From the NCBI GenBank assembly GCA_031413715.1, contig JANOFO010000004.1:1-55700 (forward strand): DNA of 55,700 bases, read 5' to 3'. The notes beneath the pieces are model-generated. The model saw nothing but the letters and a program-made list of their open reading frames with translations. It did no database searches and was not told the origin of the DNA. Numbering within the stretch: the first letter of the stretch is position 1; every line of letters begins with the position of its first letter. The DNA comes from Minisyncoccota bacterium (GTDB lineage Bacteria > Patescibacteriota > Minisyncoccia > Phycocordibacterales > UBA9973). Positions 3,720-55,700 of this stretch are shown here, one piece after another. Position numbers and translations under genes: made by a program.

Positions 3720-6700
3720 TTAATTGCTTTTATATATTTTTGCTTTTTCACAGTATTCGCATTCAGTATTCTTACCGTATGAATTGTAATTACATGGACG
3801 CCTAATCCACTCGCCGTTTTTTAGAAGTGTGTCATAGTCGGAAATATCGCGCTTTAGTAAGTCAATCTGTTCAGTTGTTATAGCCGTAGAATAAATTGCG
3901 TCTTTTTCAGAAGGATCTGCTTCGATGAATTCTAAATATGATTTGATGATTGAATGTTTCCCGCCCAAACGGCCGTCAGGTCGGGCAGGCTTTTCTGCTC
4001 CTTGTATGAGATATGTGTACATAATAAGCTGGCGAAGATAGTCGCTCGGTCTTCCCTCTTCGGTTTCTTTTTCAATCATGCTTTTTGTTTTCGCAGATCC
4101 GGTTTTAAAATCAGTGACGTGGATTTCGTCATCGGGATATCGCGCTACAAGATCGATCTTGCCATAGAGGACAAGATTAGGAAATTGAGAATCTTTATAG
4201 GAGAAGGGTTGCTCGCTGGTGCGATTTTTTGAAAATCCAGACAAGCGTGTTTTTACGAATCGCGACAAGATTGCGAATGCTTCATTCATCATCCTTCGTG
4301 TTTCATTCGGATCAATGATGTTATTCCTGAGCAAACTTGCGCTTATCATTTGCTTCAAATCCTTTTCACTGCTTTTACTTTCGTCTCCCAAAAGCTTTTC
4401 AACACATTCATGAATAACTGACCCGAATACTTGGCTTGCAGATTTTATCTCCGGAAGTTTTAATAGATTGCGGAAGTACCACTTCCAAGGACATTCAAAA
4501 AAGTTATTGAGAAGCGTGACCGATACTTTCGTCTTTTCGTATTCATCTTTTACGATTGCGGCAAGTTCCTCTGCCCCAACACGCGCTTCGACCCTCGCCT
4601 GCTTCTTCACATGCTCAGTCGGATCATCAGCGAGAATTGTTGCCTCCCCCTCACCCTCCGATTTTTTCTCGATCAATCCATCGGGAATATCAGCGAAAAT
4701 ATGGGTAAGTTCTTGCGGTGCGCCGTTATAATTCTCTAGAGCATATGACACATTGCAGTAGCGCTTGGCGCGTGTAATCGCTACATATACTTGCCTCTTT
4801 ACCACTTCATCGTCTTTTACTTCCACTATATGCTCTATTTTCTCTGGAAGCGTAAAGGTGCTGCGCTTGCCGGAGAAGAGCGACTTCTCATCAACATGGG
4901 CAATCCAGACAAAATCGAATTCCAAGCCCTTTGAACCATGGAGTGTCATGACTTTTACTCCTTCGTTCTTGCCAAACACTGCAAGCGGGATATGTTCGCC
5001 GTATTCTTTCAATCGATCAAGATAGTCGAGGAAATTGGTCAGTGTAATAGCTTCTTTACTGCGGGTTGAGAGGGATAGAGACAGGTGAAGGAATGTTCGG
5101 ATTACTTCAGCGCGAGTTGTCAGTTCATCATGCTCTTTGGAATTTTTCAAAAGAAGTTCCTCGCCAATGTATTGGATCGTCTCATACACGCTATGCGCTG
5201 AGGAAAAAGAAAGCCACTCCGAAAGCTGTTTACCAGCCACAGTGATAGGATCATTTAGAGAGAAAAGGTTGTCAGAGACACTGGTTGTGATCAAAGTCTC
5301 GATGGAAAGCTCGCGAGCTTTCGTTTTCTGAAGGAACGCGTGGGCTTGGAGCGGTGATATGCCACAATAGCGAGAAAGTATATGAAGAGCGATCGATGCC
5401 TGGTCAAATGGATCTTTCAATATACGAAGCACATTTATGAATGCGAGCGCATCACTGGATAGAAATAAATCAGTCGCTGTTCCCGCCGCAACCGGGATGC
5501 CCATATCACGGAGTATCGTCACTGCATTTCGAACTTGCGCATTCTTGGGTACAAGTATCGCGCACTCATTAGGATCAACACCTTCTTTTATATACTTTTT
5601 GATATCGATGCCCGCGCGCAAGATCTCATCGCGAGGATACGAAAGTGTGTGGAGCACGATTGGATGAGTATGTTTCGTATTGCTTTTGAGCTTTTCTTTT
5701 GTAAGGGAGCTTGAAAGGAGCGCATCGGCTACATTTAGGATATCCTGCGAGGAGCGATAATTTTCAACTAATGTAATGAGCTTGGCTTTGCCGAACGCGG
5801 TCTTGAAATTCTCAAAATACGAGAGCGATGCCCCTCCGAATCCATAGATAAGCTGGCGATCATCTCCGACGACAAAAATATTCGGCTTATCGATTTCCTT
5901 CCAGATCGCTTCAAGGAATTGGTTTTGAATTCCGCTTGAATCTTGATGCTCATCCACCAAGACATAGAGGAAATTCTCCCGCAGTTCACTTGCTACATCT
6001 TCCGATACAGTCACAAGCTCTACAAGCAGTCTGAGTGCATCGTCGTAGTCGATAAGTGAATGCTCTTTTTTATATTGCACATAGAGTTCATAGAAGCGCA
6101 CCACTTCCCGCGTCCGTTCCAAAGATTCGATTTTTTTTGTAATTTCTTTTTTTAGACTTCCTTTTGATTCGCCACGCGAAGATATGTTGGCCGAATCATT
6201 AGCATGCATTTTTATATCATGTTCGATCTCTTTTAAGAATTCTTCGGGTGTTATTCGCTCGCGGGATAGAAGCGCGATTAAAGATTTAATATCATAAAAA
6301 TATTGAGTGCTATTCCCGCGCGGTCGCAGATGCTCCCAATCATTTGTTTCCAAGATTTCATCAGCTATAGTGATGGCCCTCGTGTCATCGATGAGTTCGG
6401 GATCTTTCTCAAAATCAAGAATCGGATAATGCCTCTCTATCAAATCAAGAGCAAAGCTGTGAAACGTAGAGATTTTGACTTTGGAAGCATCGGAGCCGAT
6501 GTAGCTCATAAGGCGTTCGCGCATAGCGCGAACGCCTGAATTGGTAAACGTCAGACACAATATTCCATCGGCGTGGGTGTCAGTCTTTTCTAGGATGTTA
6601 CCGATCCGGAGCGCCAAGATCTGCGTCTTGCCGGTACCCGGACCTGCTACGACCATGACCGGGCCATCGATACTATCCACAGCATCACGCTGAGCAGTAT

Positions 6701-6749
6701 TGAGCTTTTTGTAGGCTTCGGCAAAAACTAGAGTACTCATACATCTCAT
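3720..6749 (-). CDS. UvrD/PcrA-type SF1 helicase fused to a C-terminal PD-(D/E)XK (RecB/AddB/Cas4-like) nuclease
   Basis: Walker A is VVAGPGTGKTQ and motif II is VLVDEHQD, with further SF1 motifs. The C-terminus has GKIDLV...HVTDFKTG plus RQLIMY (QxxxY). One Cys sits at the domain start (FFECPW) and three at the end (RPC...ECEYC). Start could be the internal MSTLVF. Confidence 0.85.
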   Translation of the reverse strand: MRCMSTLVFAEAYKKLNTAQRDAVDSIDGPVMVVAGPGTGKTQILALRIGNILEKTDTHADGILCLTFTNSGVRAMRERLMSYIGSDASKVKISTFHSFALDLIERHYPILDFEKDPELIDDTRAITIADEILETNDWEHLRPRGNSTQYFYDIKSLIALLSRERITPEEFLKEIEHDIKMHANDSANISSRGESKGSLKKEITKKIESLERTREVVRFYELYVQYKKEHSLIDYDDALRLLVELVTVSEDVASELRENFLYVLVDEHQDSSGIQNQFLEAIWKEIDKPNIFVVGDDRQLIYGFGGASLSYFENFKTAFGKAKLITLVENYRSSQDILNVADALLSSSLTKEKLKSNTKHTHPIVLHTLSYPRDEILRAGIDIKKYIKEGVDPNECAILVPKNAQVRNAVTILRDMGIPVAAGTATDLFLSSDALAFINVLRILKDPFDQASIALHILSRYCGISPLQAHAFLQKTKARELSIETLITTSVSDNLFSLNDPITVAGKQLSEWLSFSSAHSVYETIQYIGEELLLKNSKEHDELTTRAEVIRTFLHLSLSLSTRSKEAITLTNFLDYLDRLKEYGEHIPLAVFGKNEGVKVMTLHGSKGLEFDFVWIAHVDEKSLFSGKRSTFTLPEKIEHIVEVKDDEVVKRQVYVAITRAKRYCNVSYALENYNGAPQELTHIFADIPDGLIEKKSEGEGEATILADDPTEHVKKQARVEARVGAEELAAIVKDEYEKTKVSVTLLNNFFECPWKWYFRNLLKLPEIKSASQVFGSVIHECVEKLLGDESKSSEKDLKQMISASLLRNNIIDPNETRRMMNEAFAILSRFVKTRLSGFSKNRTSEQPFSYKDSQFPNLVLYGKIDLVARYPDDEIHVTDFKTGSAKTKSMIEKETEEGRPSDYLRQLIMYTYLIQGAEKPARPDGRLGGKHSIIKSYLEFIEADPSEKDAIYSTAITTEQIDLLKRDISDYDTLLKNGEWIRRPCNYNSYGKNTECEYCEKAKIYKSN
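3959..3988. repeat. GC-rich palindromic mini-element, copy inside the helicase-nuclease gene
   Basis: Plus strand reads tcccgcccaaacggccgtcaggtcgggcag. Its reverse complement ctgcccgacctgacggccgtttgggcggga aligns with the purL and purQ copies (shared CTGCCCGNCC ... GGCGGG termini). It is in frame and encodes ARPDGRLGG. Confidence 0.6.
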
Positions 6750-11002: not shown

Positions 11003-11713
11003 TTATTCTTGTAAATATGCTAGCCAGTAATCACGCTTGTAAATTCGATTGTTGAAAGTTGCATAGCTCGTCTTCTTTTCAAGATGCAGTATTTTGAAAT
11101 ATTTACCATACATCTTAACAAAATCATCTCTTGAGAAAACTCGCTCAGTCAGGCCAATCTCTCGTATGACATATGTATCGTATTCTTTCCCTGGGCTATT
11201 CTTTAGTAAGTTCTTTACATTTTTGTTGCCATCTTTGGCCAAAGCACGAACAAAAAAATATCCTCCATCTTTTAAGACACGATTAACTTCGGAAAGATAG
11301 ATATTCCTTCCCTGCTCATCAAGAGAATTTGAAGATGTAACATCAAGGATAATATCGATCGATGATTCTAGAATATCGTATGGCATACCAATATCTCCTA
11401 ATCGGTAATCAACATTCACACCTAATTCTTTTGCGCGCGATTCTGCAAGGTTAGTCGCTGTTTTAGAAATTTCAATTCCAATAACCTTATTCCTTTTTTC
11501 CGCTAAGTAATTCGCATTGCGGCCCGTACCTGAACCTAGATCAAGAACTGTTCTACCTTCAACTTTATATTTTTGATCTTTTTTCAGAAACTTCAAGAAC
11601 CGAAGCGTATCAGCATTTGGGCCATCTCGCTTCGTGACAAGTTTCGGATTGCGGTATTCCTTCTCCCATGCGCTTCCCTGGTGCCCGCCCGAATGATTTG
11701 ATCGGGTAAACAT
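11003..11713 (-). CDS. Class I SAM-dependent methyltransferase
   Basis: Motif I is VLDLGSGTGRN. I use the ATG at 11713-11711 (MFTRSN...), which sits just after the ndh stop, instead of the overlapping start at 11734. Confidence 0.8.
   Translation of the reverse strand: MFTRSNHSGGHQGSAWEKEYRNPKLVTKRDGPNADTLRFLKFLKKDQKYKVEGRTVLDLGSGTGRNANYLAEKRNKVIGIEISKTATNLAESRAKELGVNVDYRLGDIGMPYDILESSIDIILDVTSSNSLDEQGRNIYLSEVNRVLKDGGYFFVRALAKDGNKNVKNLLKNSPGKEYDTYVIREIGLTERVFSRDDFVKMYGKYFKILHLEKKTSYATFNNRIYKRDYWLAYLQE
11682..11706. repeat. Degenerate copy of the GC-rich palindromic mini-element (methyltransferase N-terminus)
   Basis: tgcccgcccgaatgatttgatcggg compared with the purL copy tgcccgcccggatgacccgttcggacgggg: the first 10 nt are identical and the remainder is related. 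It encodes RSNHSGGHQ, compared with PRPNGSSGRAD in purL. Confidence 0.45.
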
Positions 11714-14638: not shown

Positions 14639-15142
14639 ATGAGAGCTCAATTTTTCCACACAAATGTCTTCCATTCTTACGTAGAAGGAGGATCTCAAAA
14701 TATTCCTCTGGAATCACAAGAACACTTAAAAAATAGAGAAAGCTACATGAAAGAATGTTTGACTGTATTTTTCCAAGTCGAAAAAGGTGATGGAGAAGGG
14801 CAGTTTGATTCCCTATGTAATGCTATTATGAAAATAGCACAAGAATGGGGTACAAAAAATCTAATGCTGTCAGGTTTTGCGCATTTGTCGAACAATCATG
14901 CAGAGCCACAAGTAGCTAAAGAGTTCTACGACAAGGTAATTTATTTCTTTAAAAAAAGAGGTGGGTATGATGTAGGATCCTCGCATTTTGGGTATGACAA
15001 ATGTTTACTGTTAAATGTAAAAGGACATCCAGGATCTTTTAAGTTCAGAGACTTTCCACCTGACAAAAGGAATATAGGAACAAAAGAAAGGATGAGGTCA
15101 AGTAGTTCAGTATATTTTGTAAAAAATGATCACTTGACTTAG
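14639..15142 (+). CDS. Free-standing archaeal-type threonyl-tRNA synthetase editing-domain homolog (tRNA-Thr_ED / DTD-like fold)
   Basis: MRAQFFHTNVFHSYV..., VFFQVEKGD, SGFAHLSNNHAEP and SSHFGYDKCLLLNVKGHPGSFKF match my memory of the Pyrococcus ThrRS N-terminal editing domain (MRVLLIHSD..., FAHLS, FGY...KGHP). No synthetase core is attached. Confidence 0.6.
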   Translation: MRAQFFHTNVFHSYVEGGSQNIPLESQEHLKNRESYMKECLTVFFQVEKGDGEGQFDSLCNAIMKIAQEWGTKNLMLSGFAHLSNNHAEPQVAKEFYDKVIYFFKKRGGYDVGSSHFGYDKCLLLNVKGHPGSFKFRDFPPDKRNIGTKERMRSSSSVYFVKNDHLT

Positions 15143-25782: not shown

Positions 25783-26607
25783 TTATTTTTTGAAATAATT
25801 AATTGCGTTTTTAAAAATTTGAAACCCAGGACCTTCTTTGGGAAGATTTTTTCCTTTTCTTTTATATAATTCTTTTTGCAATTGCCAATCTGGTCGGTGG
25901 TGAAAGAACATCCCTCTCTCTGGATGCGGCATGAGTCCTAGTACTCGCCCATTATACCCCAAAACTCCGGCTATATCATGCATAGCGCCATTCGGATTTG
26001 CTTTCAGATTCTGGAATTTGCATATTTCCCCTTTTGTATAAACAAATGCTATTTGCCCTGTTCGCTTCATCTCTTTGTACTGTTCGCTTTCAATAACATA
26101 GCGTCCTTCACCATGGGCAATCGGAAGGGATATCTTCTTAATATCCGTAAGCCATGGACTTACTTCCCCGCCTCCACTTCGTTTTGGACGGGCAGGCATC
26201 TCTAAATCAACCCATCTGTCTATATATTGGGCGCTTTTATTGTGCATAAGACCTCCAGGAAGAAGTCCCAGATTTGTAATGATTTGGAATCCATTACATA
26301 TGCCAATTAAAAGAGTATCACGAGAAACAAAGGCTTCAAGTTCCTTGGCTAGATGTTTTTTGAATTTATTGGCATAAGCTTTACCCGAACCTGTATCATC
26401 GCCATAGGAGAATCCTCCTGGAAAAACAAGTATCTGGTAATTCAAAAGCATCTTAGGTTCTTTTATCAAGTCATTGATGTGGACAATATTGGCAGAGCCT
26501 CCCGCTTTATCAAATGCAAATTTCGTTTCTTCTTCGCAGTTGAGTCCATAGCCTGACATTATTATTATTTTTGTATTTTTGTTTTTCATGTGATTTACCA
26601 AAATCAT
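25783..26607 (-). CDS. purQ: FGAM synthase, glutamine amidotransferase subunit
   Basis: GICNGFQ (catalytic Cys), PIAHGEGRY and MPHPERG. The likely start is the internal MKNKNTKIIIMSGYG. Confidence 0.85.
   Translation of the reverse strand: MILVNHMKNKNTKIIIMSGYGLNCEEETKFAFDKAGGSANIVHINDLIKEPKMLLNYQILVFPGGFSYGDDTGSGKAYANKFKKHLAKELEAFVSRDTLLIGICNGFQIITNLGLLPGGLMHNKSAQYIDRWVDLEMPARPKRSGGGEVSPWLTDIKKISLPIAHGEGRYVIESEQYKEMKRTGQIAFVYTKGEICKFQNLKANPNGAMHDIAGVLGYNGRVLGLMPHPERGMFFHHRPDWQLQKELYKRKGKNLPKEGPGFQIFKNAINYFKK
26165..26195. repeat. GC-rich palindromic mini-element, copy inside purQ
   Basis: The reverse complement ctgcccgtccaaaacgaagtggaggcgggga shares ctgcccgtcc and gcgggga with the purL copies. 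It is in frame and encodes ARPKRSGGGE, in a segment about 5 aa longer than my recollection of B. subtilis PurQ. Confidence 0.55.
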
Positions 26608-26615
26608 GCTTGGCG

Positions 26616-29600
26616 CTATTTCATTTTATTTGAAAAGCTATGGTATGTATCTTTTAATTTCTCAATATCTGTACTTACAATTTTCTTTCCTTTTTTATCA
26701 GTGATAATGAATTTTTTGCTCTTTGAGACGCTACCTAGGATATCATAAGGAATTCCTTTCATTGTTTTTTCAAATGAAGATTTGTTTTTCTTGGTAACCG
26801 AAACGATAATACGACCCTGACTCTCCGAGAACAGAGCTGCGTCACTTGAGGTAAATGCGCCAGGCAATTTTTTAAGAGATAAGGTTGCGCCGAGCATGCC
26901 ACCGAGAGATGCTTTTGCAAGTGCAACTGCAAGTCCGCCAGAAGTCACAGAGATAGAGGATGCAACCAGTCCTTTTGCTATTGCTTTTTCAAGAGCCTGA
27001 TATATCTTCTTATTCTTTTTCCAGTCAACACGAGGAACATCTCTACCTATTCTAGTAATGTCATCCTTTGAAAGAAGCTTGAAATATTCTGATGCACCGA
27101 GCTCGTCGTTCGTCTCCCCTAGTACGTAAACAAGATCACCTTCAACTTTAAACTCTGGAGTAACTGATTTAGTAATATCAGGAATGACTCCAATAGCAGA
27201 GATAAGAAGTGTCGGAGGAATTGAGATTGCTACAGGATTTCCTTTTTCATCATATCCTTTAAAATCATTAAACATGCTGTCCTTACCAGAGATAAAAGGC
27301 GTGCCGTACCCAACTGCATAGTCGTAGCAAGCTCGGACTGCACCGACAAGCTCTGCTAAGCGTGACTGATCATAAGAAGAACACCAGCAGAAGTTATCTA
27401 GTATAGCCAAATTCTCAAGTGATGCTCCTGACGCAACGGCGTTCCTGATCGCCGTATCTATTGATGCAGCAGCCATATGATATGTATCAATATCAGAGTA
27501 AGAAGGATAGAGACTAGCGGAAAGAACTACGCCTTTATCGGATGATAGAAGCGGCCGGATAACTTGCGCATCGGTATTGAGCCGACCTCTGCCTGATTGC
27601 GGTTTAACGACGGATCCAGCTTGAACTTCATGATCATACTGCTCTGACATCCATGCAAAGCTACCGATATTGCCTGTTTTTAACAGTGCCTCTAGATATT
27701 TAGTTCTATCTATTTCTTTTGGTAATGTGGGATTGGAAAGATTCTTAATCTTTGCTTCCGTTTGAAGCGACCGCTTTGGCAAACCATTATGCAGAAATTC
27801 CATCGGCATATTCATAATCACTTTGCCTTTATGCTTCACTATGCAATTTTTGGAATTGTTAAATTCTCCGATTCGTACAGCTAGTACTCCGTGTGATTCC
27901 ATTAGATCATTGAACTCTTTCCATTTCCCTTTCGGTACTGCGAGAGTCATGCGCTCTTGTGATTCAGAAATCCAAATCTGCCACGGTGAAAGCCCTGGGT
28001 ACTTGAGGGGGACTTTTTCTATATCTACAATCGCCCCGCCACATTCCTTTGCCATTTCAGCGACCGAGCAGGATATACCTCCGGCCCCATTGTCGGTAAT
28101 GCTATGGTAGAGTCCAAGGTTTCGAGCCTCTTTAACAATCACATCGCTCAACTTCTTTTGAGTAATCGGGTCACCTATCTGGACTGCCGTAGCAGGACTT
28201 GAAGAATCCATGGCGACCGACGAGAATGTCGCTCCGTGAATTCCGTCAGCGCCGACTTTTCCGCCGACTACAACAATATAATCCCCTGCTTTGGCTTCCT
28301 TTTGGTGAGCAAGCTTGCCGTTTATTTTTCGAGGGCTAAGTCCGACTGTACCCACGAATACAAGCGGTTTTGCTCGGAAGCGATCATCATACCTGGCAAA
28401 TCCTGAGACGGTAGGAATCCCCGAGCAATTCCCTCCTACATTTACACCTCGAATGACTCCGTCAATTATGCGTTTCGGCGGAAGCATTTTTTGAGTTAGC
28501 TCTTTGTCGCGAAATAATGCTCTCCTATCATCTGCCCGTCCGGATGACCCCGTCGGACTGGCGTTCGGACGGGGATATCCAAAACAGAATCCGAATGTAT
28601 TGCCTACTGGTTTGGCTCCCATACCAAATCCAATCGTATCCCGATTAACGCCGACAATACCTGTAATCGCACCTCCGAATGGATCGAGTGCCGATGGACT
28701 ATTATGTGTCTCAACTTTATGGGTAACGATATGATCCTTATCAAAAATTATCCCGCCAGCATTATCGGAAAATACTGAAATGCAGAAATCCTTCTTGCCT
28801 TTGTCTTTTCGAATTCTATTTGTCGCGCCCTTTATATATGTCTTGTATAAACCATCTTTGATATCATCTATCGAATTAGCAAAGATAGTATGCTTGCAAT
28901 GTTCACTCCAGGTCTGAGCAAGTGACTCAAGCTCGATATCGGTTGGCGAGCGCTTGAGCTTCTTGAAAAATCCTTGGATTATCTTCATTGATTCTAGATC
29001 AAGTGCAAGTGGACCACGGCGTGTATTATCTGCCCGCCCGGATGACCCGTTCGGACGGGGATCAAGTATTCCCTCTTTACCAATTTTTATAAGTTCTTCA
29101 TCGGAAACATCAAGCGAGACTTTTATGACTGGAATTTTCTTGGGGAGTTTTACCTGTGGTACCACAAGAGGCAAAGTGTTGTTTTTAATCGCACTTTTCT
29201 TTGTGATTCCAAATCTTTCAATTAATGGATTGTGGAGCGAGTAGGCAATTTTTTCTATATCCTGTTCGCTTAGCTTACCTGAAATAAAAAATAGCCGTGA
29301 AGTATACACAGCCTCAGTAGCAGTAAATTTACGTCTGATTACGTCAGAGATTTCTTCTATCGCTGTGTGACCGACATTATCTGTGACACCTGGCAGGAAC
29401 CCGATCTCACATATAAACGAAAAGTTGCCGACAGGAGGCAAGACATTGATTGAGGATTTTTCTATTTTAGAATTCGTGAGTGCAGCTGATGCTTGAGAGA
29501 GTTCACCTTTTGAGAGCTTTGCATCTACTAGGTACGAATCCGCCAAGTAAATAGAGGTGACTTTATCTGAGATATCAAGACTATTGAACGATTTTTGATA

Positions 29601-29654
29601 GAGTTCTGCCCGGCTATCTTTTCCATTTGGGGTGATATATATCCGGGAAATCAT
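26616..29654 (-). CDS. purL: FGAM synthase II with N-terminal PurS-like/linker extension (1012 aa)
   Basis: Duplicated PurM-like domains (DNGAGGIS and others), context directly upstream of purQ, and about 170 extra N-terminal residues. Confidence 0.9.
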   Translation of the reverse strand: MISRIYITPNGKDSRAELYQKSFNSLDISDKVTSIYLADSYLVDAKLSKGELSQASAALTNSKIEKSSINVLPPVGNFSFICEIGFLPGVTDNVGHTAIEEISDVIRRKFTATEAVYTSRLFFISGKLSEQDIEKIAYSLHNPLIERFGITKKSAIKNNTLPLVVPQVKLPKKIPVIKVSLDVSDEELIKIGKEGILDPRPNGSSGRADNTRRGPLALDLESMKIIQGFFKKLKRSPTDIELESLAQTWSEHCKHTIFANSIDDIKDGLYKTYIKGATNRIRKDKGKKDFCISVFSDNAGGIIFDKDHIVTHKVETHNSPSALDPFGGAITGIVGVNRDTIGFGMGAKPVGNTFGFCFGYPRPNASPTGSSGRADDRRALFRDKELTQKMLPPKRIIDGVIRGVNVGGNCSGIPTVSGFARYDDRFRAKPLVFVGTVGLSPRKINGKLAHQKEAKAGDYIVVVGGKVGADGIHGATFSSVAMDSSSPATAVQIGDPITQKKLSDVIVKEARNLGLYHSITDNGAGGISCSVAEMAKECGGAIVDIEKVPLKYPGLSPWQIWISESQERMTLAVPKGKWKEFNDLMESHGVLAVRIGEFNNSKNCIVKHKGKVIMNMPMEFLHNGLPKRSLQTEAKIKNLSNPTLPKEIDRTKYLEALLKTGNIGSFAWMSEQYDHEVQAGSVVKPQSGRGRLNTDAQVIRPLLSSDKGVVLSASLYPSYSDIDTYHMAAASIDTAIRNAVASGASLENLAILDNFCWCSSYDQSRLAELVGAVRACYDYAVGYGTPFISGKDSMFNDFKGYDEKGNPVAISIPPTLLISAIGVIPDITKSVTPEFKVEGDLVYVLGETNDELGASEYFKLLSKDDITRIGRDVPRVDWKKNKKIYQALEKAIAKGLVASSISVTSGGLAVALAKASLGGMLGATLSLKKLPGAFTSSDAALFSESQGRIIVSVTKKNKSSFEKTMKGIPYDILGSVSKSKKFIITDKKGKKIVSTDIEKLKDTYHSFSNKMK
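28532..28575. repeat. GC-rich palindromic mini-element, purL copy A (44 nt)
   Basis: ctgcccgtccggatgaccc[cgtcggactggc]gttcggacgggga. It equals copy B apart from one T/C difference and a 12-nt internal expansion. Termini TGCCCGTCC / GGACGGGGA are inverted repeats. Confidence 0.75.
29030..29061. repeat. GC-rich palindromic mini-element, purL copy B (32 nt)
   Basis: ctgcccgcccggatgacccgttcggacgggga has 24 of 32 nt G+C in an AT-rich gene. It encodes PRPNGSSGRADN on the coding strand. Confidence 0.75.
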
Positions 29655-33811: not shown

Positions 33812-34045
33812 TTAAGTAAAATGGTTTTTCATAAACGCTCGGCCGGAACCGGATTTTAAATATTTTTCAAATTCAAATGCCTTATATTTATCTTTTAAAG
33901 CAAAGTAGAATTCTAATTCTATAGGAAGACGATTAGAAGTTGCTTGAACATTTCCTTTTTGGTGTCTAGAAATCCTATCTTTCAAGTTGTCTGTGCAGCC
34001 TATGTAAAAACCATCTTTGCATTTTAAACTGTAAACATAGTACAT
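33812..34045 (-). CDS. GIY-YIG nuclease-superfamily small protein (77 aa)
   Basis: MYYVYSLKCKDGFYIGCTDNLKDRISRH matches the GIY...YIG...R pattern. Confidence 0.8.
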   Translation of the reverse strand: MYYVYSLKCKDGFYIGCTDNLKDRISRHQKGNVQATSNRLPIELEFYFALKDKYKAFEFEKYLKSGSGRAFMKNHFT

Positions 34046-34069
34046 ATAAATATTATATCATTTATATTA

Positions 34070-34147
34070 GCGGATTTTATCACGCCGTAGTCACGATATA
34101 GATTTGGCGAATCCGACTTCGCTAAAGCTATGTCGTGACGAAGGCGG
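34070..34147. repeat. 78-bp palindromic direct repeat, copy 1
   Basis: gcggattttatcacgccgtagtcacgatatagatttggcgaatccgacttcgctaaagctatgtcgtgacgaaggcgg is identical to 35194-35271. It folds as gtcacgatatag ... ctatgtcgtgac with an inner gcgaa-tccgac-ttcgc hairpin. Confidence 0.85.
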
Positions 34148-35151: not shown

Positions 35152-35193
35152 GTATATTTTTATCCATTAAATAAGGTTTTTACTTTCGTATTG

Positions 35194-35271
35194 GCGGATT
35201 TTATCACGCCGTAGTCACGATATAGATTTGGCGAATCCGACTTCGCTAAAGCTATGTCGTGACGAAGGCGG
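35194..35271. repeat. 78-bp palindromic direct repeat, copy 2 (abuts the tRNA-Ser 3' end)
   Basis: Perfect match to 34070-34147. Its last 3 nt overlap the 3' end of tRNA-Ser. Confidence 0.85.
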
Positions 35272-35355
35272 AGGGTAAGAGATTTGAACTCTTGATGGAG
35301 TTGCCCCCATACCACCTTTCCAAGGTGGCGCACTAGACCGCTATGCGAACCCTCC
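35269..35355 (-). tRNA. tRNA-Ser (anticodon GGA), class II with long variable arm
   Basis: Hand fold: acceptor GGAGGGT/ACCCTCC, 3-bp D stem, anticodon stem CCACC/GGTGG with loop TTGGAAA, variable arm ATGGGG-GCAA-CTCCAT, T arm AAGAG-TTCAAAT-CTCTT. CCA is not encoded. Confidence 0.85.
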
Positions 35356-49652: not shown

Positions 49653-49765
49653 GTGTTGGCGACAACCTACTTTCCCTATAAAAATAAGTATCATCGGCAT
49701 AACGGCGCTTAACTGCTGTGTTCGGAATGAGAACAGGTGTATCCACCGCATCGAATCACCAACAC
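49653..49765 (-). rRNA. rrf: 5S rRNA
   Basis: Helix I is GTGTTGGTG/CGCCAACAC. The conserved CCTGTTCTCATTCCGAACACAGCAGTTAAGC and GTAGG elements are present. Length about 113 nt. Confidence 0.85.
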
Positions 49766-49844
49766 AAAACTTTTAACTATTATATTTTCAAGACGAGAAA
49801 AAATCAGATATACATGATATCTGAAAACTGAATGCTGGAGGACG

Positions 49845-49873
49845 TCCCACTTCGCTCAAAGAGCTTCGCGGGA
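49845..49873. repeat. 29-nt hairpin element in the 23S-5S spacer (inverted copy of 50272-50301)
   Basis: tcccacttcgctcaaagagcttcgcggga is the reverse complement of 50272-50301 except for a 1-nt indel. Confidence 0.7.
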
Positions 49874-50110
49874 TAAAACAATAATAATGATTTCCATATT
49901 TCCTAATAGGAATCGAACGATTAGTACACCTCGGCTAAAGACATTACTGTCTGTACACCTAGTGCCTATCAACCTAATCATCTCTTAGGTTTCTCAAACG
50001 ATTCCTCATCTTGAAGCTGGCTTCCCTCTTAGATGCTTTCAGAGGTTATCCATTCCCGACATAGCTACTCGGCAATCCAGCGGGCGCTAGAGCCGACACA
50101 CCAGAGGTCA

Positions 50111-50141
<31 letters not shown>

Positions 50142-50193
50142 ATCTTCTCAAGAATCAACGCCTGCAGTAGATAGGAGACCAACCTGTCTCACG

Positions 50194-50730
50194 CACCTAC
50201 ATGTCCTTTCATAATATGACGAATATCATGAATGCATTTCACATATTACTATGTGGATTGGACTATAACTTTCCCGCGAAGCTCTTTCGAGCGAAGTGGG
50301 AGTTCACATTTAGTCTCTACGGGTATTTAATCTTATAAGTTTCATGAAGGAAGCGAATTCAAAAGAACTCGCTAACTTTAATTGCTTTGGGGACTGGATT
50401 CTGACCAAACCAGTAATCTCCGGGTCTCAAACCCGACGCTCTATGTTTTAAGCTAGCCCCAAATTAAATTTAAGGTACTTTTCCTTTATGAAACTCACAA
50501 AACAAAACTTCCCTCGGTATTGCCCTTCCTTCGATTATACTCAGGATTCGGGTTTCACCGATATAAGTGAACTTCATATAGTACATCACTGTACTACACC
50601 GCCGTGACACACATACTGTGTGTTATGGACTTGACCTCAAATTAAAACAGTCATTGGAAAATTTCTTTTCCTTTGTTCCTCAATTGGTTCAAACTGTCCA
50701 ATTCTCAATCACACCGTGATTGATCTCTGA
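50194..50730 (-). mobile_element. ORF-less group I intron at the 23S L2593 site (537 nt)
   Basis: The 5' exon ends AACCGT (U) and the intron ends ...GTAGGTG (terminal G), before CGTGAGACAG. The core elements AGACTAAATGTGAAC and AAGTTATAGTCCAATC resemble the Tetrahymena AGACUAAAUGUCGG / AAGAUAUAGUCGGACC elements. Confidence 0.75.
50272..50301. repeat. 30-nt hairpin element forming P8 of the L2593 intron (inverted copy of 49845-49873)
   Basis: Plus strand reads tcccgcgaagctctttcgagcgaagtggga. In rRNA sense it is TCCCAC-TTC-GCTC-GAAA-GAGC-TTC-GCGGGA, lying between the P7 and J8/7 elements. Confidence 0.7.
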
Positions 50731-51064
50731 ACGGTTTGAACCCAGCTCGCGTACCTTTTTAATTAGCGAACAGCTAAACCCTTGGCAGCTTCTCCACCAC
50801 CAGGATAAGGTGAGCCGACATCGAGGTGCCGAACTCCGCCGTCGATATGAACTCTTAGGCGGAACTAGCCTGTTATCCCTAGAGTAGCTTTTATCCGTTA
50901 ATCTTCATCCGCATCTAATGCGAAATGTCGGTTCACTATGTTCTACTTTCGTATCTGCTCGAGATGTACCTCTTACAGTTAAGCTAGCTTGTGCCATTAC
51001 ACTATCGGCACGGTTTCCATTCGCGCCTAGCTAACCTTAATAAACTCCTCCGTTACTCTTTAGG

Positions 51065-52012
51065 CATTTATGTTAACCCAATTTATATTTCATGCTTGGA
51101 ACTATGTATGACTCAATCATCTTTTTAAATTTTTGAGCTGATTCGCTATACACATACAATCTCCATTGTGAATACTGTTTATGTATACCTACTTTGATTC
51201 CAAACTTTTTAGCAAAAACATCTTTTATAATCTCAAGCTCTTGTTTTGTATAGCTATTCGCGTGAATAATGTATGTTTTATGAGATTTGGATTTAAATGA
51301 TCCATCATCCATAAACCATACGGCTATACTTCTTCGACTTAACATTTTAGAAATAGTTTTTGGTATGACTTTCTTACCATTTAGATAAAAAAGTTTTCCA
51401 TAAGAACCGAATTTTTCGCTTGAAAGGGTCATAAATCCATAAGATTTAAGCTCTTTACCAAGGGACAACCGTGTTCTTTCTTTTGGTGCTGAAGTCACAA
51501 ATTCCTTTAAGTTCTCGTACAACCAATCAACATATTCTTTCTGTTTGATTGAGTGCTCCACTTTGAGGCGATAGGTTCTACCATTGTTTTGTGTTTCCAA
51601 ATGGCCATCACCTAAGATGACTCCAACTATTATTTCTTTCTGTTTTGTCGTAAGCTTTAATTTATTTAATGTTTTCACATTTAGGTTTTCTAGTTTGTAA
51701 CTTAACTAGAACTTCATGTTGCCATGAAGATCGGACTATATCTTCATCCTAGTAAAAGGATGGCTGACGTTTAGTCTCTACGGGTAAATAATTTTATTTT
51801 GGTCATAATAATTATTTTTCCCTCGGTATTATCCTATTAATACTTAAATTATAGGATTTCCACCGATATAGTCAACTTTTTCAATCTGTATTGCTACAGA
51901 AAGTCCCCCTTGTTTTATTTGTTTTGAGGTGTAAATCGTGAACCAATCACAACCTCGTGAGGCGGCATAGTTCGAGAGTTCAAATAACAACATGCATTAT
52001 TGTAAACTCTCG
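51065..52012 (-). mobile_element. Group I intron with LAGLIDADG ORF, inserted just 3' of the P-loop (about E. coli 2262)
   Basis: The exon junction GGTATCCT|CCTAAAGAG is continuous in the plus copy at about 55440-55460. The core elements GTAGAGACTAAACGTCAGCC (rc of 51762-51784) and GGATGAAGATATAGTCCGATC (rc of 51729-51749) are present. The intron ends in G at 51065. Confidence 0.75.
51073..51678 (-). CDS. Double-motif LAGLIDADG homing endonuclease (201 aa)
   Basis: Motifs IIVGVILGDGHL and IAVWFMDDGSFK. The ORF lies 3' of the ribozyme core and stops 8 nt before the 3' splice site. Confidence 0.85.
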   Translation of the reverse strand: MKTLNKLKLTTKQKEIIVGVILGDGHLETQNNGRTYRLKVEHSIKQKEYVDWLYENLKEFVTSAPKERTRLSLGKELKSYGFMTLSSEKFGSYGKLFYLNGKKVIPKTISKMLSRRSIAVWFMDDGSFKSKSHKTYIIHANSYTKQELEIIKDVFAKKFGIKVGIHKQYSQWRLYVYSESAQKFKKMIESYIVPSMKYKLG

Positions 52013-52878
52013 AGGATACCGCCCCAGTAAAACTACCCACCAGATACTGTCTCTCTCCGTTTTTGCCGTAGAGATTAGAACATATAATCACAAAAATTGG
52101 TATTTCACTGACGAGTAGATCAGAGCCGAAACCCTAACCATCAAACCTCTCCCAACTATGCTACGTAGTGTAATCATATGCTCAATATCAAGCTGCAGTA
52201 AAGCTTCTAGGGTCTTTTCATTAGAGTCACAAACAGGACGCAATAATAAAAAAAGTGTACATGCATTAGAGGAAGCGGTTCCCGAGAATGTGTGCACCGT
52301 CCGAAGTTTTTCGAAAGAAAAATGGAAGATGGTTTTCAGATTTCCTAATAGGAAATTAAGAGTATATGGTGGATGCCTAGACTAAAAAAGGCGATGAAAG
52401 ACGTGGCATGGCGGCGATACGTTTCGGGGAGGTGCCTAGCAACCTTTGATCCGGAAATTTCTGAATGGGGAAACCCACTTGCGTAAACCGCAAGTACTTT
52501 CATACTTGATATGAAGGAGCACACCCAGGGAAGTAAAACATTTCATTACCTGGAGGAAAAGAGAAAAATATTTATTTTCTGAGTAGCGGCGAGCGAAAAG
52601 GAAAAAGCCCAAACCGGCCTTTCACAAAGTGAATGATGCAAATCGCATCGTGCATTCTGTGATGGGCCGGGGTTGTAAGGTGACAATGTAGATTTATCTA
52701 GAGGAGTCAAAAAATGTGTTGTTAGATCAAACTTCTGGAAAGGAGTGCCACAGACGGTGATAGCCCGGTGATCGAAAATTTCACGTCTCTTTGATTGTCA
52801 TTCTTGAGTAGCTCAAGACACGAATAGCTTGAGCGAATCCGCCAGAACTAACTGGCAAGGCTAAATACTTTTTTAGAT

Positions 52879-52921
<43 letters not shown>

Positions 52922-53499
52922 GATGAGGGGAGTGAAATAGACCTGAAACCATATACTTACAAGGAGTCGGAGCGGGTATTTATATCCGTCACGGCGTGCC
53001 TATTGAAGAATGAGCCAACGAGTTTATCTATGCTGCAGGCTAAGCTGTTAGAACAGTGGAGCCTTAGGGAAACCGAGTGTTAATAGCGCGAACAATTAAT
53101 GTAGTATAGATAAGACCCGAAGCGAGGTGAGCTTGCCATGAGCAGGATGAACCCTGTCGAAAGATGGGGGGAGGTCCGAACCGGTGACCCGTGCAATAGT
53201 CTCGGATGACTTGTGGTAAGGAGTGAAAAGCTAATCGAACCTCGTAATAGCTGGTTCTCTCCGAAATAGCTTTAGGGCTAGCGTCGTGTGTTCCTCTTGG
53301 GGGTAGAGCACTGGAAGGTTTCGACAGGGAGCAATCTCGCGACACCTATCAAACTCCGAATACCAAGAGCTAAAACACGGCAGTTAGGCTATGGGGGCGA
53401 AGCTCCATCAGCCAAAAGGGAAACAGCCCAGATCTCTAATTAAGGTCCCTAAATTTACGCTAAGTGCAAATCAAGGAGGTGAAATTTCTCTGACAATGA

Positions 53500-53531
<32 letters not shown>

Positions 53532-54353
53532 GAAAGCGTAACAGCTCACTCATCAAGAGATTTTGCACCGAAAATAATCGGGGCTAAGCGTAGTACCGAA
53601 ATTGAGGGCTTCATGTTTCTTCGGAAATGTGGAGCGGTAGGAGAGTATTCCATACAGCGTCGAAGCTAAAGGGGTGACCCATAGTGGAGCGTATGGAAGT
53701 AAGAATGTTGGCACAAGTAACCGCAAGGAAGGTGAGATCCCTTCCCGCCGAAAGATTCAGGTTTCCTTGGCAATGGTGATCATCCAAGGGTTAGTCGGTC
53801 CTAAGGGGATGGCGAAAGCCGCACTCGATGGGCATAAGGTTAATATTCCTTAACTTCTGTTGTATTCGAAGATGGGACGGAGTGTAGTATATAGAGCTCA
53901 TTATTGGATTTGAGTTTGTAACGTGAGGATACATCCTAGGAAAATCCGGGGTGAACCACTTTAGTGTGGGCTATCCAAGCATTGCATAAATGTTCCGATT
54001 CGTCGGGATAAATTTTATAAAGCACGCTTCCAAGAAAAGCATCTAAGGTTAATGCAATAGAATCCGTACCGTAAACCGACACAGGTAATCAGGTCGAGTA
54101 GACCAAGGCGAACGAGTGAGAGGTCTTCAAGGAACTCGGCAAAAAAGCAGCCGTAACTTTGGAATAAGGCTTGCCGTTCTTGATTTATCAAGATCGGCCG
54201 CAGCGAAAGTATCTCTGGCAACTGTTTATCAAAAACACAGCTCCCTGCGAACTCGCAAGAGGATGTATAGGGGGTGACACCTGACCAATGCCAGAAGGTC
54301 AATTATCGGTGGTCCATGGTCGCAAGATTGTGGGCTGGCTGATACAAGCCCTG

Positions 54354-54394
<41 letters not shown>

Positions 54395-54408
54395 GTACCT
54401 TGTCGGGT

Positions 54409-55141
54409 AAGTGGAACTGCCCATCCCAAGAGTGATTTTGGGATTAAATCTGGCTTATAACGGTGGAATCCTTTTATGTGAGTGCGTAAAATAAAAGGAC
54501 AATACCGTGGGAAGTCGTCGTATCGATAACAATAATTTTTATTGCAGGTACGATTGACCCCGTAACGACTTAGGTCGCCTCTGTATAGTGGCGACCAAGA
54601 TAGATTATTGATATAATCTATAACATGCCGGCTCTCAGTAAAAAACGCAATATACACGAGTATATTTCTGGATATGTAGATGGAGAAGGATGCTTCAGTG
54701 TTTCATTTTCAAAACGAGAAAAATTTCTCGTCGGCTGGGAAACTAAACCAAGTTTCTCGGTCAGCCAAAATGAAGATAGAGCGCAAATCCTTTTCCTAAT
54801 GCAAAAAGTTTTCAAATGTGGATTTATACGACGAGATTATTCTGACAAAACTCTCAAATTTGAGGTGCGAAGTTTAGAAGATCTTGTAAGTAAAGTAATT
54901 CCTCACTTTGAAATGTATCCTCTGCTTTCTCAAAAACAAAAAGATTTTAAATTTTTTAAACAGATTTGTTTACTCATGCAAAGGAATTTGCACACAAACA
55001 AAACTGGATTATTAAAAATTATAAATCTTGCGTTTGCGATGAATCCGAGCGGAAAAAGGAAATACACAAAAGAAGAAATTCAAAAAGCGTTGAGATGAAG
55101 ATATAGTCTGATCCCTCTCGTAAGAGAGGTAAACGAAAATG
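54409..55141 (+). mobile_element. Group I intron with LAGLIDADG ORF at the 23S L1951 site (733 nt)
   Basis: Exons are GTCGGGT|...|AAGTTCCGAC. An aagt repeat at both borders leaves 4 nt of ambiguity, and the U/terminal-G rule selects 54409-55141. J8/7 is GATGAAGATATAGTCTGATC, followed by P9 CCTCTC-GTAA-GAGAGG. Confidence 0.75.
54625..55098 (+). CDS. Single-motif LAGLIDADG homing endonuclease (157 aa, I-CreI-like architecture)
   Basis: It has one YISGYVDGEGCF motif. Its stop codon overlaps the start of the J8/7 element, so the ORF occupies the P8 region. Confidence 0.85.
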   Translation: MPALSKKRNIHEYISGYVDGEGCFSVSFSKREKFLVGWETKPSFSVSQNEDRAQILFLMQKVFKCGFIRRDYSDKTLKFEVRSLEDLVSKVIPHFEMYPLLSQKQKDFKFFKQICLLMQRNLHTNKTGLLKIINLAFAMNPSGKRKYTKEEIQKALR

Positions 55142-55430: not shown

Positions 55431-55471
<41 letters not shown>

Positions 55472-55617: not shown

Positions 55618-55650
<33 letters not shown>

Positions 55651-55700
55651 GGTTCCGCCCGAGCGTCCATAGCGACGGCGGAGTTCGGCACCTCGATGTC

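What the first reader, a model, noticed from the sequence alone, without database searches (positions are those of the whole stretch)
28532..29061. Two near-identical GC-rich palindromic mini-elements inserted in frame in purL
Positions 28532-28575 (ctgcccgtccggatgaccc[cgtcggactggc]gttcggacgggga) and 29030-29061 (ctgcccgcccggatgacccgttcggacgggga) are the same sequence. They differ only by one T/C change and a 12-nt (4-codon) internal expansion. The termini are inverted repeats (TGCCCGYCC / GGACGGGGA). The element is about three-quarters G+C inside an AT-rich gene. Both copies stay in frame, adding ...PRPNGSSGRADN... and ...PRPNASPTGSSGRADD... about 160 residues apart in an essential enzyme. 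Nucleotide identity this high cannot come from the ancient internal duplication of PurL, so it looks like recent insertion of a short selfish palindrome. The best-known parallel is the Rickettsia palindromic element (RPE), which inserts in frame into ORFs. I know of no such family described for CPR-like genomes. Related copies occur in purQ, the helicase-nuclease and a methyltransferase (separate findings).
Basis: partly seen in the sequence, partly recalled or inferred. Interest (0 to 1): 0.72.

Follow-up and report, generated by a model that had tools for sequence, protein, structure and literature searches.

The report
Tiny mobile hairpin repeats inside purL
Two copies of a 27-base GC-rich hairpin repeat, which also occurs widely in Bacteroidota, other CPR bacteria and anammox Planctomycetota, have landed in frame in surface loops of the essential enzyme PurL, adding about 10 residues each, much like a miniature version of the Rickettsia palindromic elements.

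Summary
Positions 28533-28574 and 29031-29060 hold the same imperfect GC-rich palindrome. On the minus strand, which is the gene's sense strand, it reads CCCGTCCGAACG..TCATCCGGRCGGG. The gene is a PurSL-type FGAM synthase (26616-29654, minus strand).

- **Lineage-specific inserts.** They are exactly 9 and 13 codons long. They are absent from the two closest relatives (84-86% identity) and from nearly all of 120 homologs.
- **Location in the protein.** Both fall in unstructured, low-confidence stretches of the model.
- **A large family.** One pattern scan hit its 120-locus limit: 103 Bacteroidota (including cultured isolates), 10 Patescibacteria, 6 Planctomycetota and 1 Fidelibacterota. Most copies are intergenic. 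Some interrupt tRNA-gene copies in the D-loop.
- **Frame selection.** Of the 18 copies deep inside ORFs, 16 have a length divisible by three.
- **Older relatives in the window.** Two weaker, probably older relatives sit in purQ and in a helicase-nuclease. Both are also lineage-specific inserts.
- **How it inserts.** There is no target-site duplication in the six cases where the empty site is known. Insertion follows TG (AG in one case).
- **What was not found.** No transposase was found, there is no Rfam family, and no paper holds the sequence.

Verdict: a real, apparently undescribed family of REP/RPE-like hairpin elements. The way it moves is inferred, not shown.

The parts
29031..29060 (-). 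Copy E2. A canonical 27-nt hairpin element (CCCGTCCGAACGGGTCATCCGGGCGGG) in PurL linker site 1. It is translated as (P)RPNGSSGRA.
   Evidence: The family covariance model scores it 50.2 bits, E = 1.4e-9. It is a 9-codon insertion relative to L003, whose empty site reads GAT-CCA-GAT-GGT.
28533..28574 (-). Copy E1. The same element with 12 extra nt in its loop (39 nt inserted) in PurL site 2. It is translated as (P)RPNASPTGSSGRA. Its stem carries a compensated T-A pair where E2 has T.G.
   Evidence: The model scores it 41.3 bits, E = 1.7e-7. It is a 13-codon insertion relative to L003, whose empty site reads TAC-CCA-GAT-GAC.
26165..26193 (-). Copy E4. A diverged relative (CCCGTCCAAAACGAAGTGGAGGCGGGG) inside purQ, read as PARPKRSGG in the same orientation and frame as E1 and E2.
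   Evidence: It is an insert of exactly 9 codons relative to the purQ of L003 and L001. The model match is weak: 13.5 bits, E = 0.64.
3959..3987 (+). Copy E3. A diverged relative in the PD-(D/E)XK nuclease domain of the UvrD-type helicase-nuclease. It lies opposite to the gene and is read as PARPDGRLGG.
   Evidence: It is a 9-10 residue insert absent from all 59 orthologs aligned. The model match is weak: 12.3 bits, E = 1.2.
11682..11707 (-). A possible decayed copy (ACCCGATCAAATCATTCGGGCGGGCA) near the start of a methyltransferase ORF. It is not established.
   Evidence: The model gives 8.6 bits, E = 9. Its 3' half matches TCATCCGGGCGGGCA at 14 of 15 positions by eye.
26616..29654 (-). Host gene: PurSL-type FGAM synthase, 1012 aa.
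   Evidence: Pfam PF18072, PF00586, PF02769. PDB PurL chains match, including 3VIU at E = 5.8e-67.
25783..26607 (-). Host gene purQ (glutaminase subunit of FGAM synthase), 274 aa, holding E4.
   Evidence: The orthologous genes in L001 and L003 carry PF13507 GATase_5.
3720..6749 (-). Host gene: UvrD-type helicase fused to a PD-(D/E)XK nuclease, 1009 aa, holding E3.
   Evidence: Pfam matches.

Best explanation
E1 and E2 are copies of a short element (27-37 nt) that cannot move on its own. It is an imperfect GC-rich hairpin with the consensus (C/G)CCCGTCCGAACGG-loop-TTCATCCGGGCGGG. The structure is an 8-bp basal stem with a conserved T.G position, a 4-nt CAUC bulge, a short upper stem and a variable loop. 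It belongs to the same general kind as REP sequences and Rickettsia palindromic elements.

**Shown**
- Copies are scattered through Bacteroidota, Patescibacteria and anammox Planctomycetota.
- In this lineage the element entered purL twice, each time at the heptamer CCAGATG. This happened after the split from relatives whose PurL is 84-86% identical.
- Insertion is seamless, with no target-site duplication.
- Copies inside genes are nearly all a multiple of three long and are read in one frame per orientation (xRPNGSSGRx or xRPDDPFGRx).

**Inferred**
- Insertion takes place on single-stranded DNA, carried out by an enzyme supplied from elsewhere that recognises the hairpin. An HUH/Y1-type transposase of the kind used by IS200/IS605 and by REP-RAYT systems is the most likely candidate. 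It would place the element just 3' of a short TG/AG target.
- Selection then removes every genic copy that shifts the frame, introduces a stop or lands in folded core. What survives is 27-nt (or other 3n) copies translated as short Pro/Gly/Ser/Arg-rich loops.
- The inserts in PurL, PurQ and the helicase are most likely tolerated passengers, not adaptations.
For: 1. **Lineage-specific, exact-codon inserts.** Alignment of 120 PurL homologs, DNA of the empty sites in L003, and a neighbour-joining tree that puts the window among insert-free sisters. The same holds for purQ and the helicase.
2. **A dispersed family.** The pattern CCGTCCGAACGN{2,14}TCATCCGGNCGGG hit the 120-locus limit in one genome per species. 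The breakdown is 103 Bacteroidota, 10 Patescibacteria, 6 Planctomycetota and 1 Fidelibacterota. Seven loci come from cultured isolates, so this is not a binning artefact. Some loci hold up to six copies in 8 kb.
3. **Not a protein motif.** Of 128 distinct copies, 110 are not deep inside ORFs. Some sit in the D-loop of tRNA-gene copies.
4. **Selection on frame.** 16 of 18 ORF-embedded copies are 3n long, against 45 of 110 elsewhere (Fisher p = 1.8e-4). For the 27-nt class the figures are 14 of 18 against 23 of 110 (p = 4.6e-6). 13 of 14 ORF-embedded 27-nt copies use the xRP frame (binomial p = 6e-5 against 2 of 5 open frames).
5. **Seamless insertion at a short target.** Six cases where both filled and empty sites are known show no duplication and a host TG or AG just 5' of CCCGCCCGG: two purL sites, tRNA-Val in L059, tRNA-Asp in L088, tRNA-Leu in L038 and tRNA-Val in L053. 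The flank logo agrees: +1 is C in 108 of 126 copies and +2 is A or T in 103 of 126.
6. **The same element at the same codon elsewhere.** In the distant PurL P0018 (69% identity) it sits at the same codon with diverged flanks, and it appears in two independent assemblies.
7. **Loop location.** In the AlphaFold model both inserts are coil with pLDDT below 50, at 200-206 and 357-375. Site 2 aligns to a gap between a strand and a helix of T. thermophilus PurL, 3VIU.
8. **Nesting and pairing typical of mobile repeats.** Copies sit inside other hairpins or in tandem (L005, L085, L091, L099, L116). Inverted pairs form a MITE-like unit of about 230 bp in L079.
Against: - **No mobilising enzyme found.** No protein family resembling a transposase recurs in the 8-kb flanks of the 120 loci. 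Twenty window ORFs scanned are housekeeping genes or a LAGLIDADG endonuclease.
- **No filled/empty polymorphism seen.** A pattern that would match either the filled or the empty site-1 allele found nothing in genomes or metagenomes.
- **Atypical distribution.** Near-identity of the consensus across phyla is unusual for REP-RAYT systems, which are mostly inherited vertically and are lineage-specific (abstract of 10.1101/2022.05.22.493013, listed).
- **Stability does not single it out.** RNA folding energy is not exceptional for such GC-rich sequence (z = -0.9 to -2.6).
- **Sampling bias.** The family was collected with a fixed pattern, so the apparent conservation is partly built in. Copies found afterwards with the model widen it only a little.
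- **Copy number here is unknown.** The number of copies in the source genome outside this window could not be measured.
Confidence: 0.72

Rival explanations
1. Only one of the two purL copies arrived from elsewhere. The other was copied within the gene by template switching or ectopic gene conversion, using the short homology that both sites share (ATC..CAGAT).
For: The two copies lie 498 nt apart in one gene and differ by one base plus a 12-nt loop stretch. Both empty sites in L003 hold the same heptamer CCAGATG.
Against: The shared C^CA junction is the family's general preference and is also seen at tRNA sites, so two independent hits are expected at such sites. 3-7 nt of homology is very little for gene conversion. 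E1's extra 12 nt resemble a variant family (CCCGTCCGACTGGCG..) seen in L015 and L018, which points to a different source copy or a nested event.
Confidence: 0.12
2. The hairpin spreads together with, or by the action of, a small GIY-YIG nuclease (about 80-95 aa, YhbQ-like). The solo hairpins would be by-products of that nuclease's cassettes, which target tRNA genes.
For: Six of the seven GIY-YIG ORFs of this type in the 120 pattern loci lie within about 160 bp of an element, in both CPR and Bacteroidota. In five of those six the hairpin is upstream in a fixed orientation. The seventh (L014 6783-7016) is more than 3 kb from the element in that locus. The window itself encodes a homolog at 33812-34045, 41% identical to the one in L100.
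Against: None of the 80 best loci encoding close relatives of the window's GIY-YIG protein has a canonical hairpin within 1.2 kb. In four of the six cases both features sit in tRNA-gene remnants, so a shared liking for tRNA genes explains the link. The window's GIY-YIG gene is not next to any element.
Confidence: 0.07
3. The inserts are selected protein features: a loop motif (RPNGSSGR) gained for a function such as binding or regulation.
For: The same frame is used in 13 of 14 genic 27-nt copies. The same loop of PurL carries the same peptide in a distant lineage.
Against: The nucleotide sequence is conserved, not just the peptide, and 110 of 128 copies are outside ORFs or inside tRNA-gene copies. 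The host proteins are unrelated to one another (PurL, PurQ, helicase). The closest relatives do without the inserts. The opposite orientation gives a different peptide.
Confidence: 0.04
4. The segments are removed or skipped at the RNA or translation level (a mini-intron, or a bypass like the byp elements of yeast mitochondria), so they never appear in the protein.
For: Copies occur inside tRNA-gene copies, where an insert would otherwise be harmful. GC-rich hairpins in yeast mitochondria gave rise to bypassed elements (my own knowledge: Lang et al. 2014, cited in PMC4478555).
Against: Genic copies are strongly enriched for 3n lengths and stop-free frames. Removal or bypass would not require that. 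The interrupted tRNA copies lie beside intact copies and carry further damage, so they look like pseudogenes.
Confidence: 0.03
5. Assembly or binning artefact: foreign or chimeric reads stitched into purL.
For: The window's rRNA end has an odd inverted layout that could be a local mis-assembly.
Against: The inserts keep the frame exactly. The same element at the same site is found in two independent assemblies of another lineage (L001 and L002). The family is present in cultured isolates and complete chromosomes.
Confidence: 0.01

Closest known systems
Rickettsia palindromic elements (RPEs)
   Same: Palindromic dispersed repeats that insert in frame into unrelated housekeeping genes, in either orientation. 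They add a peptide compatible with the protein fold, and no transposase is known for them (PMC10969869, PMC3733652).
   Different: RPEs are about 100-150 bp long and are found in Rickettsia. This element is 27-37 nt, adds only 9-13 residues, has an unrelated sequence, and is found in Bacteroidota, Patescibacteria and Planctomycetota.
REP sequences / REPINs mobilised by RAYT transposases, and the GTAG- and CGTC-tagged REP superfamilies (Di Nocera 2013, PMC3733652)
   Same: Imperfect hairpins of 20-40 nt, mostly extragenic, sometimes intragenic, sometimes in inverted pairs. CGTC occurs in one arm only. The CGTC superfamily also lacks a dedicated transposase and includes Bacteroidetes.
   Different: There is no terminal GTAG. 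Here CGTC is internal (CC-CGTC-CG), the stem starts with C-G pairs and not A-T pairs, and the loop is about 11 nt or longer against 4-5 nt. No RAYT was found beside any copy. The consensus is shared across phyla, whereas REPs are usually lineage-specific.
IS200/IS605-family elements and their palindrome-associated derivatives
   Same: Seamless insertion without target-site duplication, immediately 3' of a short target, and ends made of imperfect hairpins with conserved irregularities.
   Different: Those elements have two different ends and usually carry tnpA and/or tnpB. Here the whole element is a single hairpin, and no TnpA was found.
Palindromic GC clusters of yeast mitochondrial genomes (for example GC42; PMC4478555)
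   Same: GC-rich palindromes of about 40 nt in an AT-rich genome, patchily present, merging and nesting with one another, passed between species, and sometimes lying in coding sequence.
   Different: They are organellar and eukaryotic with unrelated sequence, and putative target-site duplications have been reported for them. Here no duplication was seen.

Membership tests
Rickettsia palindromic elements (RPE-1 to RPE-10) | Length of about 100-150 bp, encoding a conserved peptide of about 30-50 residues | tested here: not met
   The inserts are 27 and 39 nt, giving 9 and 13 residues.
Rickettsia palindromic elements (RPE-1 to RPE-10) | In-frame insertion into unrelated ORFs, at sites compatible with the fold | tested here: met
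   PurL twice, PurQ and the helicase-nuclease. In the model the inserts are coil with pLDDT below 50.
Rickettsia palindromic elements (RPE-1 to RPE-10) | Sequence similarity to an RPE family; occurrence in Rickettsia | not tested
   No RPE sequences were available for comparison. The pattern scan returned no Rickettsiales among its 120 loci.
REP / REPIN-RAYT systems | A short (20-40 nt) imperfect palindrome, repeated many times, mostly between genes | tested here: met
   27-37 nt; 110 of 128 copies are not deep inside ORFs; up to 6 copies in 8 kb in Segetibacter. Copy number in the source genome is unknown.
REP / REPIN-RAYT systems | A conserved GTAG at the 5' end | tested here: not met
   The consensus is (C/G)CCCGTCCG... 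with no GTAG at either end.
REP / REPIN-RAYT systems | A single-copy RAYT (Y1 HUH transposase) gene flanked by the repeats | tested here: inconclusive
   Nothing was found in the 8-kb flanks of 120 loci or in the window. Only 2 of hundreds of REPs per genome flank a RAYT gene, so whole genomes would be needed.
CGTC-tagged REP families 1-4 (PMC3733652) | A terminal CGTC, a stem of 8-9 bp beginning with two A-T pairs, a loop of 4-5 nt and a CCA tail | tested here: not met
   CGTC is present in one arm only, but it is internal. The stem begins C-G, C-G, C-G. The loop plus bulge is at least 11 nt. The 3' flank is C(A/T). The family definition comes from the paper's text; its figure was not available.
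MITEs (derived from cut-and-paste IS elements) | Terminal inverted repeats flanked by a target-site duplication | tested here: not met
   No duplication in six cases where both filled and empty sites are known.
IS200/IS605-type single-strand transposition (mechanism, not family membership) | No target-site duplication, with insertion 3' of a short specific target next to a hairpin end | tested here: met
   TG^ (AG^ in one case) precedes CCCGCCCGG in six resolved cases, and the flank logo agrees. The target is only about 2 nt, so this is weak.
IS200/IS605-type single-strand transposition (mechanism, not family membership) | Orientation bias towards the lagging-strand template; single-stranded circular intermediates | not testable with these tools
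   This needs complete chromosomes with mapped origins, and mobilome sequencing.

The most novel reading that the evidence does not exclude
The hairpin is the smallest element so far known to insert in frame. It would be mobilised from elsewhere in the genome by a still unidentified enzyme that acts on single-stranded DNA or on DNA structure. The element, with or without its enzyme, would have passed between phyla that share habitats (Chitinophagaceae and other Bacteroidota, CPR episymbionts, anammox Planctomycetota). It could then serve as a marker of DNA flow between CPR cells and their neighbours or hosts, and as a general source of new surface loops in essential enzymes of reduced genomes.
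Probability: 0.25. Interest if true: 0.78.

Novelty: new member of a known kind. Interest (0 to 1): 0.6.

Why it matters
- **Small genomes still pick up repeats.** It shows that the very small, gene-dense genomes of CPR bacteria still take up selfish repeats. Having almost no intergenic space, they hold them inside essential genes as short extra loops. This is a simple, testable source of the lineage-specific insertions often noted in CPR proteins.
- **An unusual distribution.** The same 27-37 nt consensus in three or four phyla is not what REP-like repeats usually show. It points to a shared or transferred mobilising activity that is worth identifying.
- **Practical uses.** The family model can flag such inserts during annotation and structure prediction. 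Sites that are filled in some genomes and empty in others could serve as strain markers.

Tried and rejected
- **Rfam.** The window at gathering thresholds and seven element-bearing loci at E up to 1 gave no family over the element.
- **Literature.** Four 12-nt strings of the element occur in no relevant paper. Keyword searches for CPR or Bacteroidota palindromic in-frame repeats returned only general REP, RPE and MITE work.
- **Viral contigs.** The family pattern gave 0 hits in IMG/VR, so there is no sign of a phage vector.
- **Filled/empty polymorphism.** A pattern matching either allele of site 1 with the window's own flanks found nothing in genome or metagenome contigs. The source strain is apparently not in those collections.
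- **Site-1 filled alleles in other species.** A pattern joining the element to the conserved GPLA codons found only two matches, which I take to be chance, in Gemmatimonadaceae and Hyphomicrobiales.
- **Transposase hunt.** Clustering of all ORFs in the 120 loci gave no recurrent family resembling a transposase. BLAST with IS200 and IS608 TnpA sequences recalled from memory gave weak hits that Pfam did not confirm.
- **GIY-YIG link.** It looked striking at first, with 6 of the 7 such ORFs next to elements. However, 80 loci of the window's own GIY-YIG subfamily hold no element, so I demoted it to a minor rival. A profile-based locus search failed because the alignment had no conserved stretch.
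- **Preference for the tips of larger hairpins.** A simple test for flanking inverted repeats gave 3 cases against 1.4 expected. This is not significant, and I dropped the idea.
- **Same-nucleotide recurrence as proof of targeting.** The element is at the same nucleotide in PurL loop 1 of the window and of P0018. I considered this as evidence for targeting, but the loop has only about four positions in the right phase, so chance plus selection is enough to explain it.
- **One preprint** (10.64898/2026.09.22.753630) could not be opened.
Full report
**1. The observation**

The two stretches are in the window exactly as quoted. The 19-nt left half, allowing three mismatches, matches only these two places, and none of 100 shuffles gave any match. 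Their G+C is 0.74-0.77 in a window averaging about 0.40.

Both lie in the 1012-aa ORF 26616-29654 on the minus strand. This is a PurSL-type FGAM synthase with FGAR-AT_linker, AIRS and AIRS_C domains, and it matches solved PurL structures. They are read as LD-PRPNGSSGRA-DN at residue 199 and GY-PRPNASPTGSSGRA-DD at residue 361.

**2. They are insertions**

In an alignment of the window's protein with its 120 best homologs, nearly all sequences lack both peptides. That includes the two nearest relatives, P0001 and P0005 (84-86% identity).

The contig encoding P0001 (L003) is syntenic with window 12.9-46.6 kb. At the two sites it reads GAT-CCA-GAT-GGT and TAC-CCA-GAT-GAC. The window therefore carries exact additions of 27 and 39 nt at the heptamer CCAGATG, with nothing duplicated. 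The junction can be placed one base either way.

I scanned all indels between the 18 ortholog pairs of the window and L003. Only three inserts are GC-enriched (0.56-0.74): these two and a 27-nt insert in purQ. The other inserts lie in poorly conserved proteins, with G+C of 0.25-0.48.

A neighbour-joining tree puts the window inside a clade whose other members lack the canonical inserts.

**3. The inserted DNA is a widespread repeat**

A pattern made from the two copies and the copy in P0018, CCGTCCGAACGN{2,14}TCATCCGGNCGGG, was scanned over one genome per species.

By record title the loci divide as follows:

| Group | Loci |
|---|---|
| Bacteroidota, mainly Chitinophagaceae, Sphingobacteriales and Flavobacteriales | 103 |
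| Patescibacteria of several classes | 10 |
| Planctomycetota (Scalindua, Brocadiaceae) | 6 |
| Fidelibacterota | 1 |

Seven of the Bacteroidota loci come from cultured isolates, such as Segetibacter sp. 3557_3, Pinibacter aurantiacus, Niabella defluvii and N. ginsengisoli.

The consensus is (C/G)CCCGTCCGAACGG-loop-TTCATCCGGGCGGG, followed by C and then A or T. Length classes are 27, 28, 29-31 and 35-37 nt.

The palindrome is imperfect in a conserved way. One arm has CGTC and the other CGCC, and a CATC bulge follows the upper stem.

A covariance model built from 54 copies gave these results:
- E2 scores 50.2 bits and E1 scores 41.3 bits.
- It finds one copy in L001 and none in L003.
- It finds further copies, not selected by the pattern, in the fetched loci: up to six in 8 kb of Segetibacter.

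Nothing in Rfam covers the element. No paper in the library holds its sequence. It is absent from viral contigs.

**4. Where copies sit and what selection does to them**

Of 128 distinct copies, 110 are not deep inside ORFs.

The 18 that lie at least 60 codons from either ORF end occur in both orientations. The same-sense orientation reads ARPNGSSGRG and the opposite one reads ARPDDPFGRG.

- 16 of the 18 have lengths divisible by three, against 45 of 110 elsewhere (p = 1.8e-4).
- 14 of the 18 are the 27-nt class, against 23 of 110 elsewhere (p = 4.6e-6).
- 13 of 14 genic 27-nt copies use the same frame, although five of the six frames are open (p = 6e-5).

This is what one expects if the segment is translated and selection removes disruptive copies. 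It argues against removal at the RNA level.

In the AlphaFold model of the window's PurSL (mean pLDDT 77.7), both inserts are coil with pLDDT below 50, at 200-206 and 357-375. The whole stretch 318-417 is poorly modelled, so this says less for site 2. Site 2 also aligns to a gap between a strand and a helix of T. thermophilus PurL.

**5. Other copies in the window**

After E1 and E2 and their reverse strands, the next model hits are:
- 26165-26193 (-), 13.5 bits
- 3959-3987 (+), 12.3 bits
- 11682-11707 (-), 8.6 bits

All three are weak.

The first is an insert of exactly 9 codons in PurQ relative to two orthologs. The second is a 9-10 residue insert in the nuclease domain of a UvrD-type helicase-nuclease, absent from 59 aligned orthologs.

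Both start CCTGCCCG and end GGCGGG(G)AA. So do other GC-rich hairpins at or near PurL site 2 in P0051 and P0097. They may be old copies or members of sister families. The third site is not established.

**6. Clues to the mechanism**

*Seamless insertion at a short target.* Six cases where both the filled and the empty site are known show the same thing: the two purL sites, tRNA-Val in L059, tRNA-Asp in L088, tRNA-Leu in L038 and tRNA-Val in L053. There is no duplication. On the strand that reads CCCGCCCGGATGA..., the host bases just before the element are TG, or AG in one case. The flank logo agrees.

*Nesting and pairing.* Copies are sometimes nested in other hairpins or placed in tandem. In L079 they sit in the two arms of a MITE-like palindrome of about 230 bp.

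*What this suggests.* Seamless insertion next to a short target, together with a hairpin that has conserved irregularities, is the signature of HUH/Y1 single-strand transposition (IS200/IS605, REP-RAYT). That link rests on my own knowledge and on the abstracts of PMC6006769 and PMC3479197 listed.

*What is missing.* No such enzyme was found near any copy or in the window. Because a trans-acting gene could lie anywhere in a genome, this absence decides nothing.

*The GIY-YIG lead.* A link with small GIY-YIG genes (6 of the 7 such ORFs within about 160 bp of an element) did not generalise. Eighty loci encoding close relatives of the window's own GIY-YIG protein contain no element.

**7. Recurrence at the same loop**

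P0018 (69% identity) carries a near-identical 27-nt copy at the same nucleotide of loop 1, with diverged flanks. It is seen in two independent assemblies. P0029, in the same distant clade, has a decayed version. Their sister sequences lack it.

This needs at least two gains or several precise losses. With only about four in-phase positions in that loop, selection for permissive sites is enough to explain the coincidence.

**8. Comparison with known elements**

- The behaviour matches RPEs (in-frame palindromes in housekeeping genes; PMC10969869), but the size and the host organisms do not.
- It fits the broad idea of REP sequences. It resembles the CGTC-tagged superfamily, which lacks a transposase, includes Bacteroidetes and is sometimes intragenic. 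It fails the stated definition of that superfamily: a terminal tag, a stem starting with A-T pairs, a 4-5 nt loop and a CCA tail (PMC3733652).
- Yeast mitochondrial GC clusters are a close functional parallel in another setting (PMC4478555).

I therefore file it as a new family of a known kind.

**9. Verdict**

- **Added here.** The element is not peculiar to this genome or to CPR. It belongs to a large family, seemingly undescribed, that spans phyla.
- **Still inferred.** Current mobility, the enzyme involved, and whether the loops matter to the proteins.

Noticed in passing
window 49654-55700: The rRNA layout is odd. 23S rRNA runs on the plus strand from 52346 to the window end (model positions 1-2533). 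Fragments of the 3' part of 23S (model 2090-2912) and a 5S gene lie on the minus strand at 49654-51110. Between them are a group I intron (51712-51936, minus) and a LAGLIDADG ORF (51073-51678, minus). This is either two head-to-head operons with introns or an inverted mis-assembly.
   Followed up: partly
window 33812-34045 (-): A 77-aa GIY-YIG (YhbQ-like) ORF. Close relatives (64-94% identity) occur in at least 538 places across many CPR classes, which is unusually high conservation for so small a protein.
   Followed up: partly
window 34065-34147 and 35189-35271: An 83-nt direct repeat, 99% identical, which by eye contains an internal inverted repeat. One copy abuts the 3' end of tRNA-Ser (35267-35355, minus). 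The other lies just upstream of the GIY-YIG ORF. Together they bracket a 1.1-kb segment holding a 222-aa ORF with no Pfam match. It looks like a cassette integrated at the tRNA gene.
   Followed up: partly
L059 6650-7100 (-); L038 4500-5120; L088 1560-2100; L053 5580-5965: Tandem or fragmentary tRNA-gene copies are interrupted by the hairpin exactly in the D-loop, next to an intact copy of the same tRNA. In L059 a second GC hairpin also sits in the T-loop. In L053, L088, L052 and L100 a GIY-YIG ORF lies between the tRNA fragment and the intact tRNA.
   Followed up: partly
L079 2650-2845: A MITE-like palindrome of about 230 bp. Each arm holds one hairpin element plus repeated CACTAAG heptads. 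The hairpin can therefore be a building block of larger repeats.
   Followed up: no
L124 (P0097) and L125 (P0051), PurL site 2 region: Other Paceibacteria carry different GC-rich hairpin inserts (CCTGCCCGCC..GGCAGGCAGG and CCTGCCCGCA..TGCAGGCGGG) at or near the same PurL loop. In P0097 the insert appears to sit at the same nucleotide as E1.
   Followed up: partly
L015 2190-2790 and L018 90-230: A variant hairpin family (CCCGTCCGACTGGCGCAGCCGGGCGGG) lies beside canonical copies. Its core resembles the extra 12 nt in the loop of E1.
   Followed up: no
window 14639-15142 (+): A free-standing 167-aa ORF matches the archaea-type editing domain of threonyl-tRNA synthetase (PF08915).
   Followed up: no
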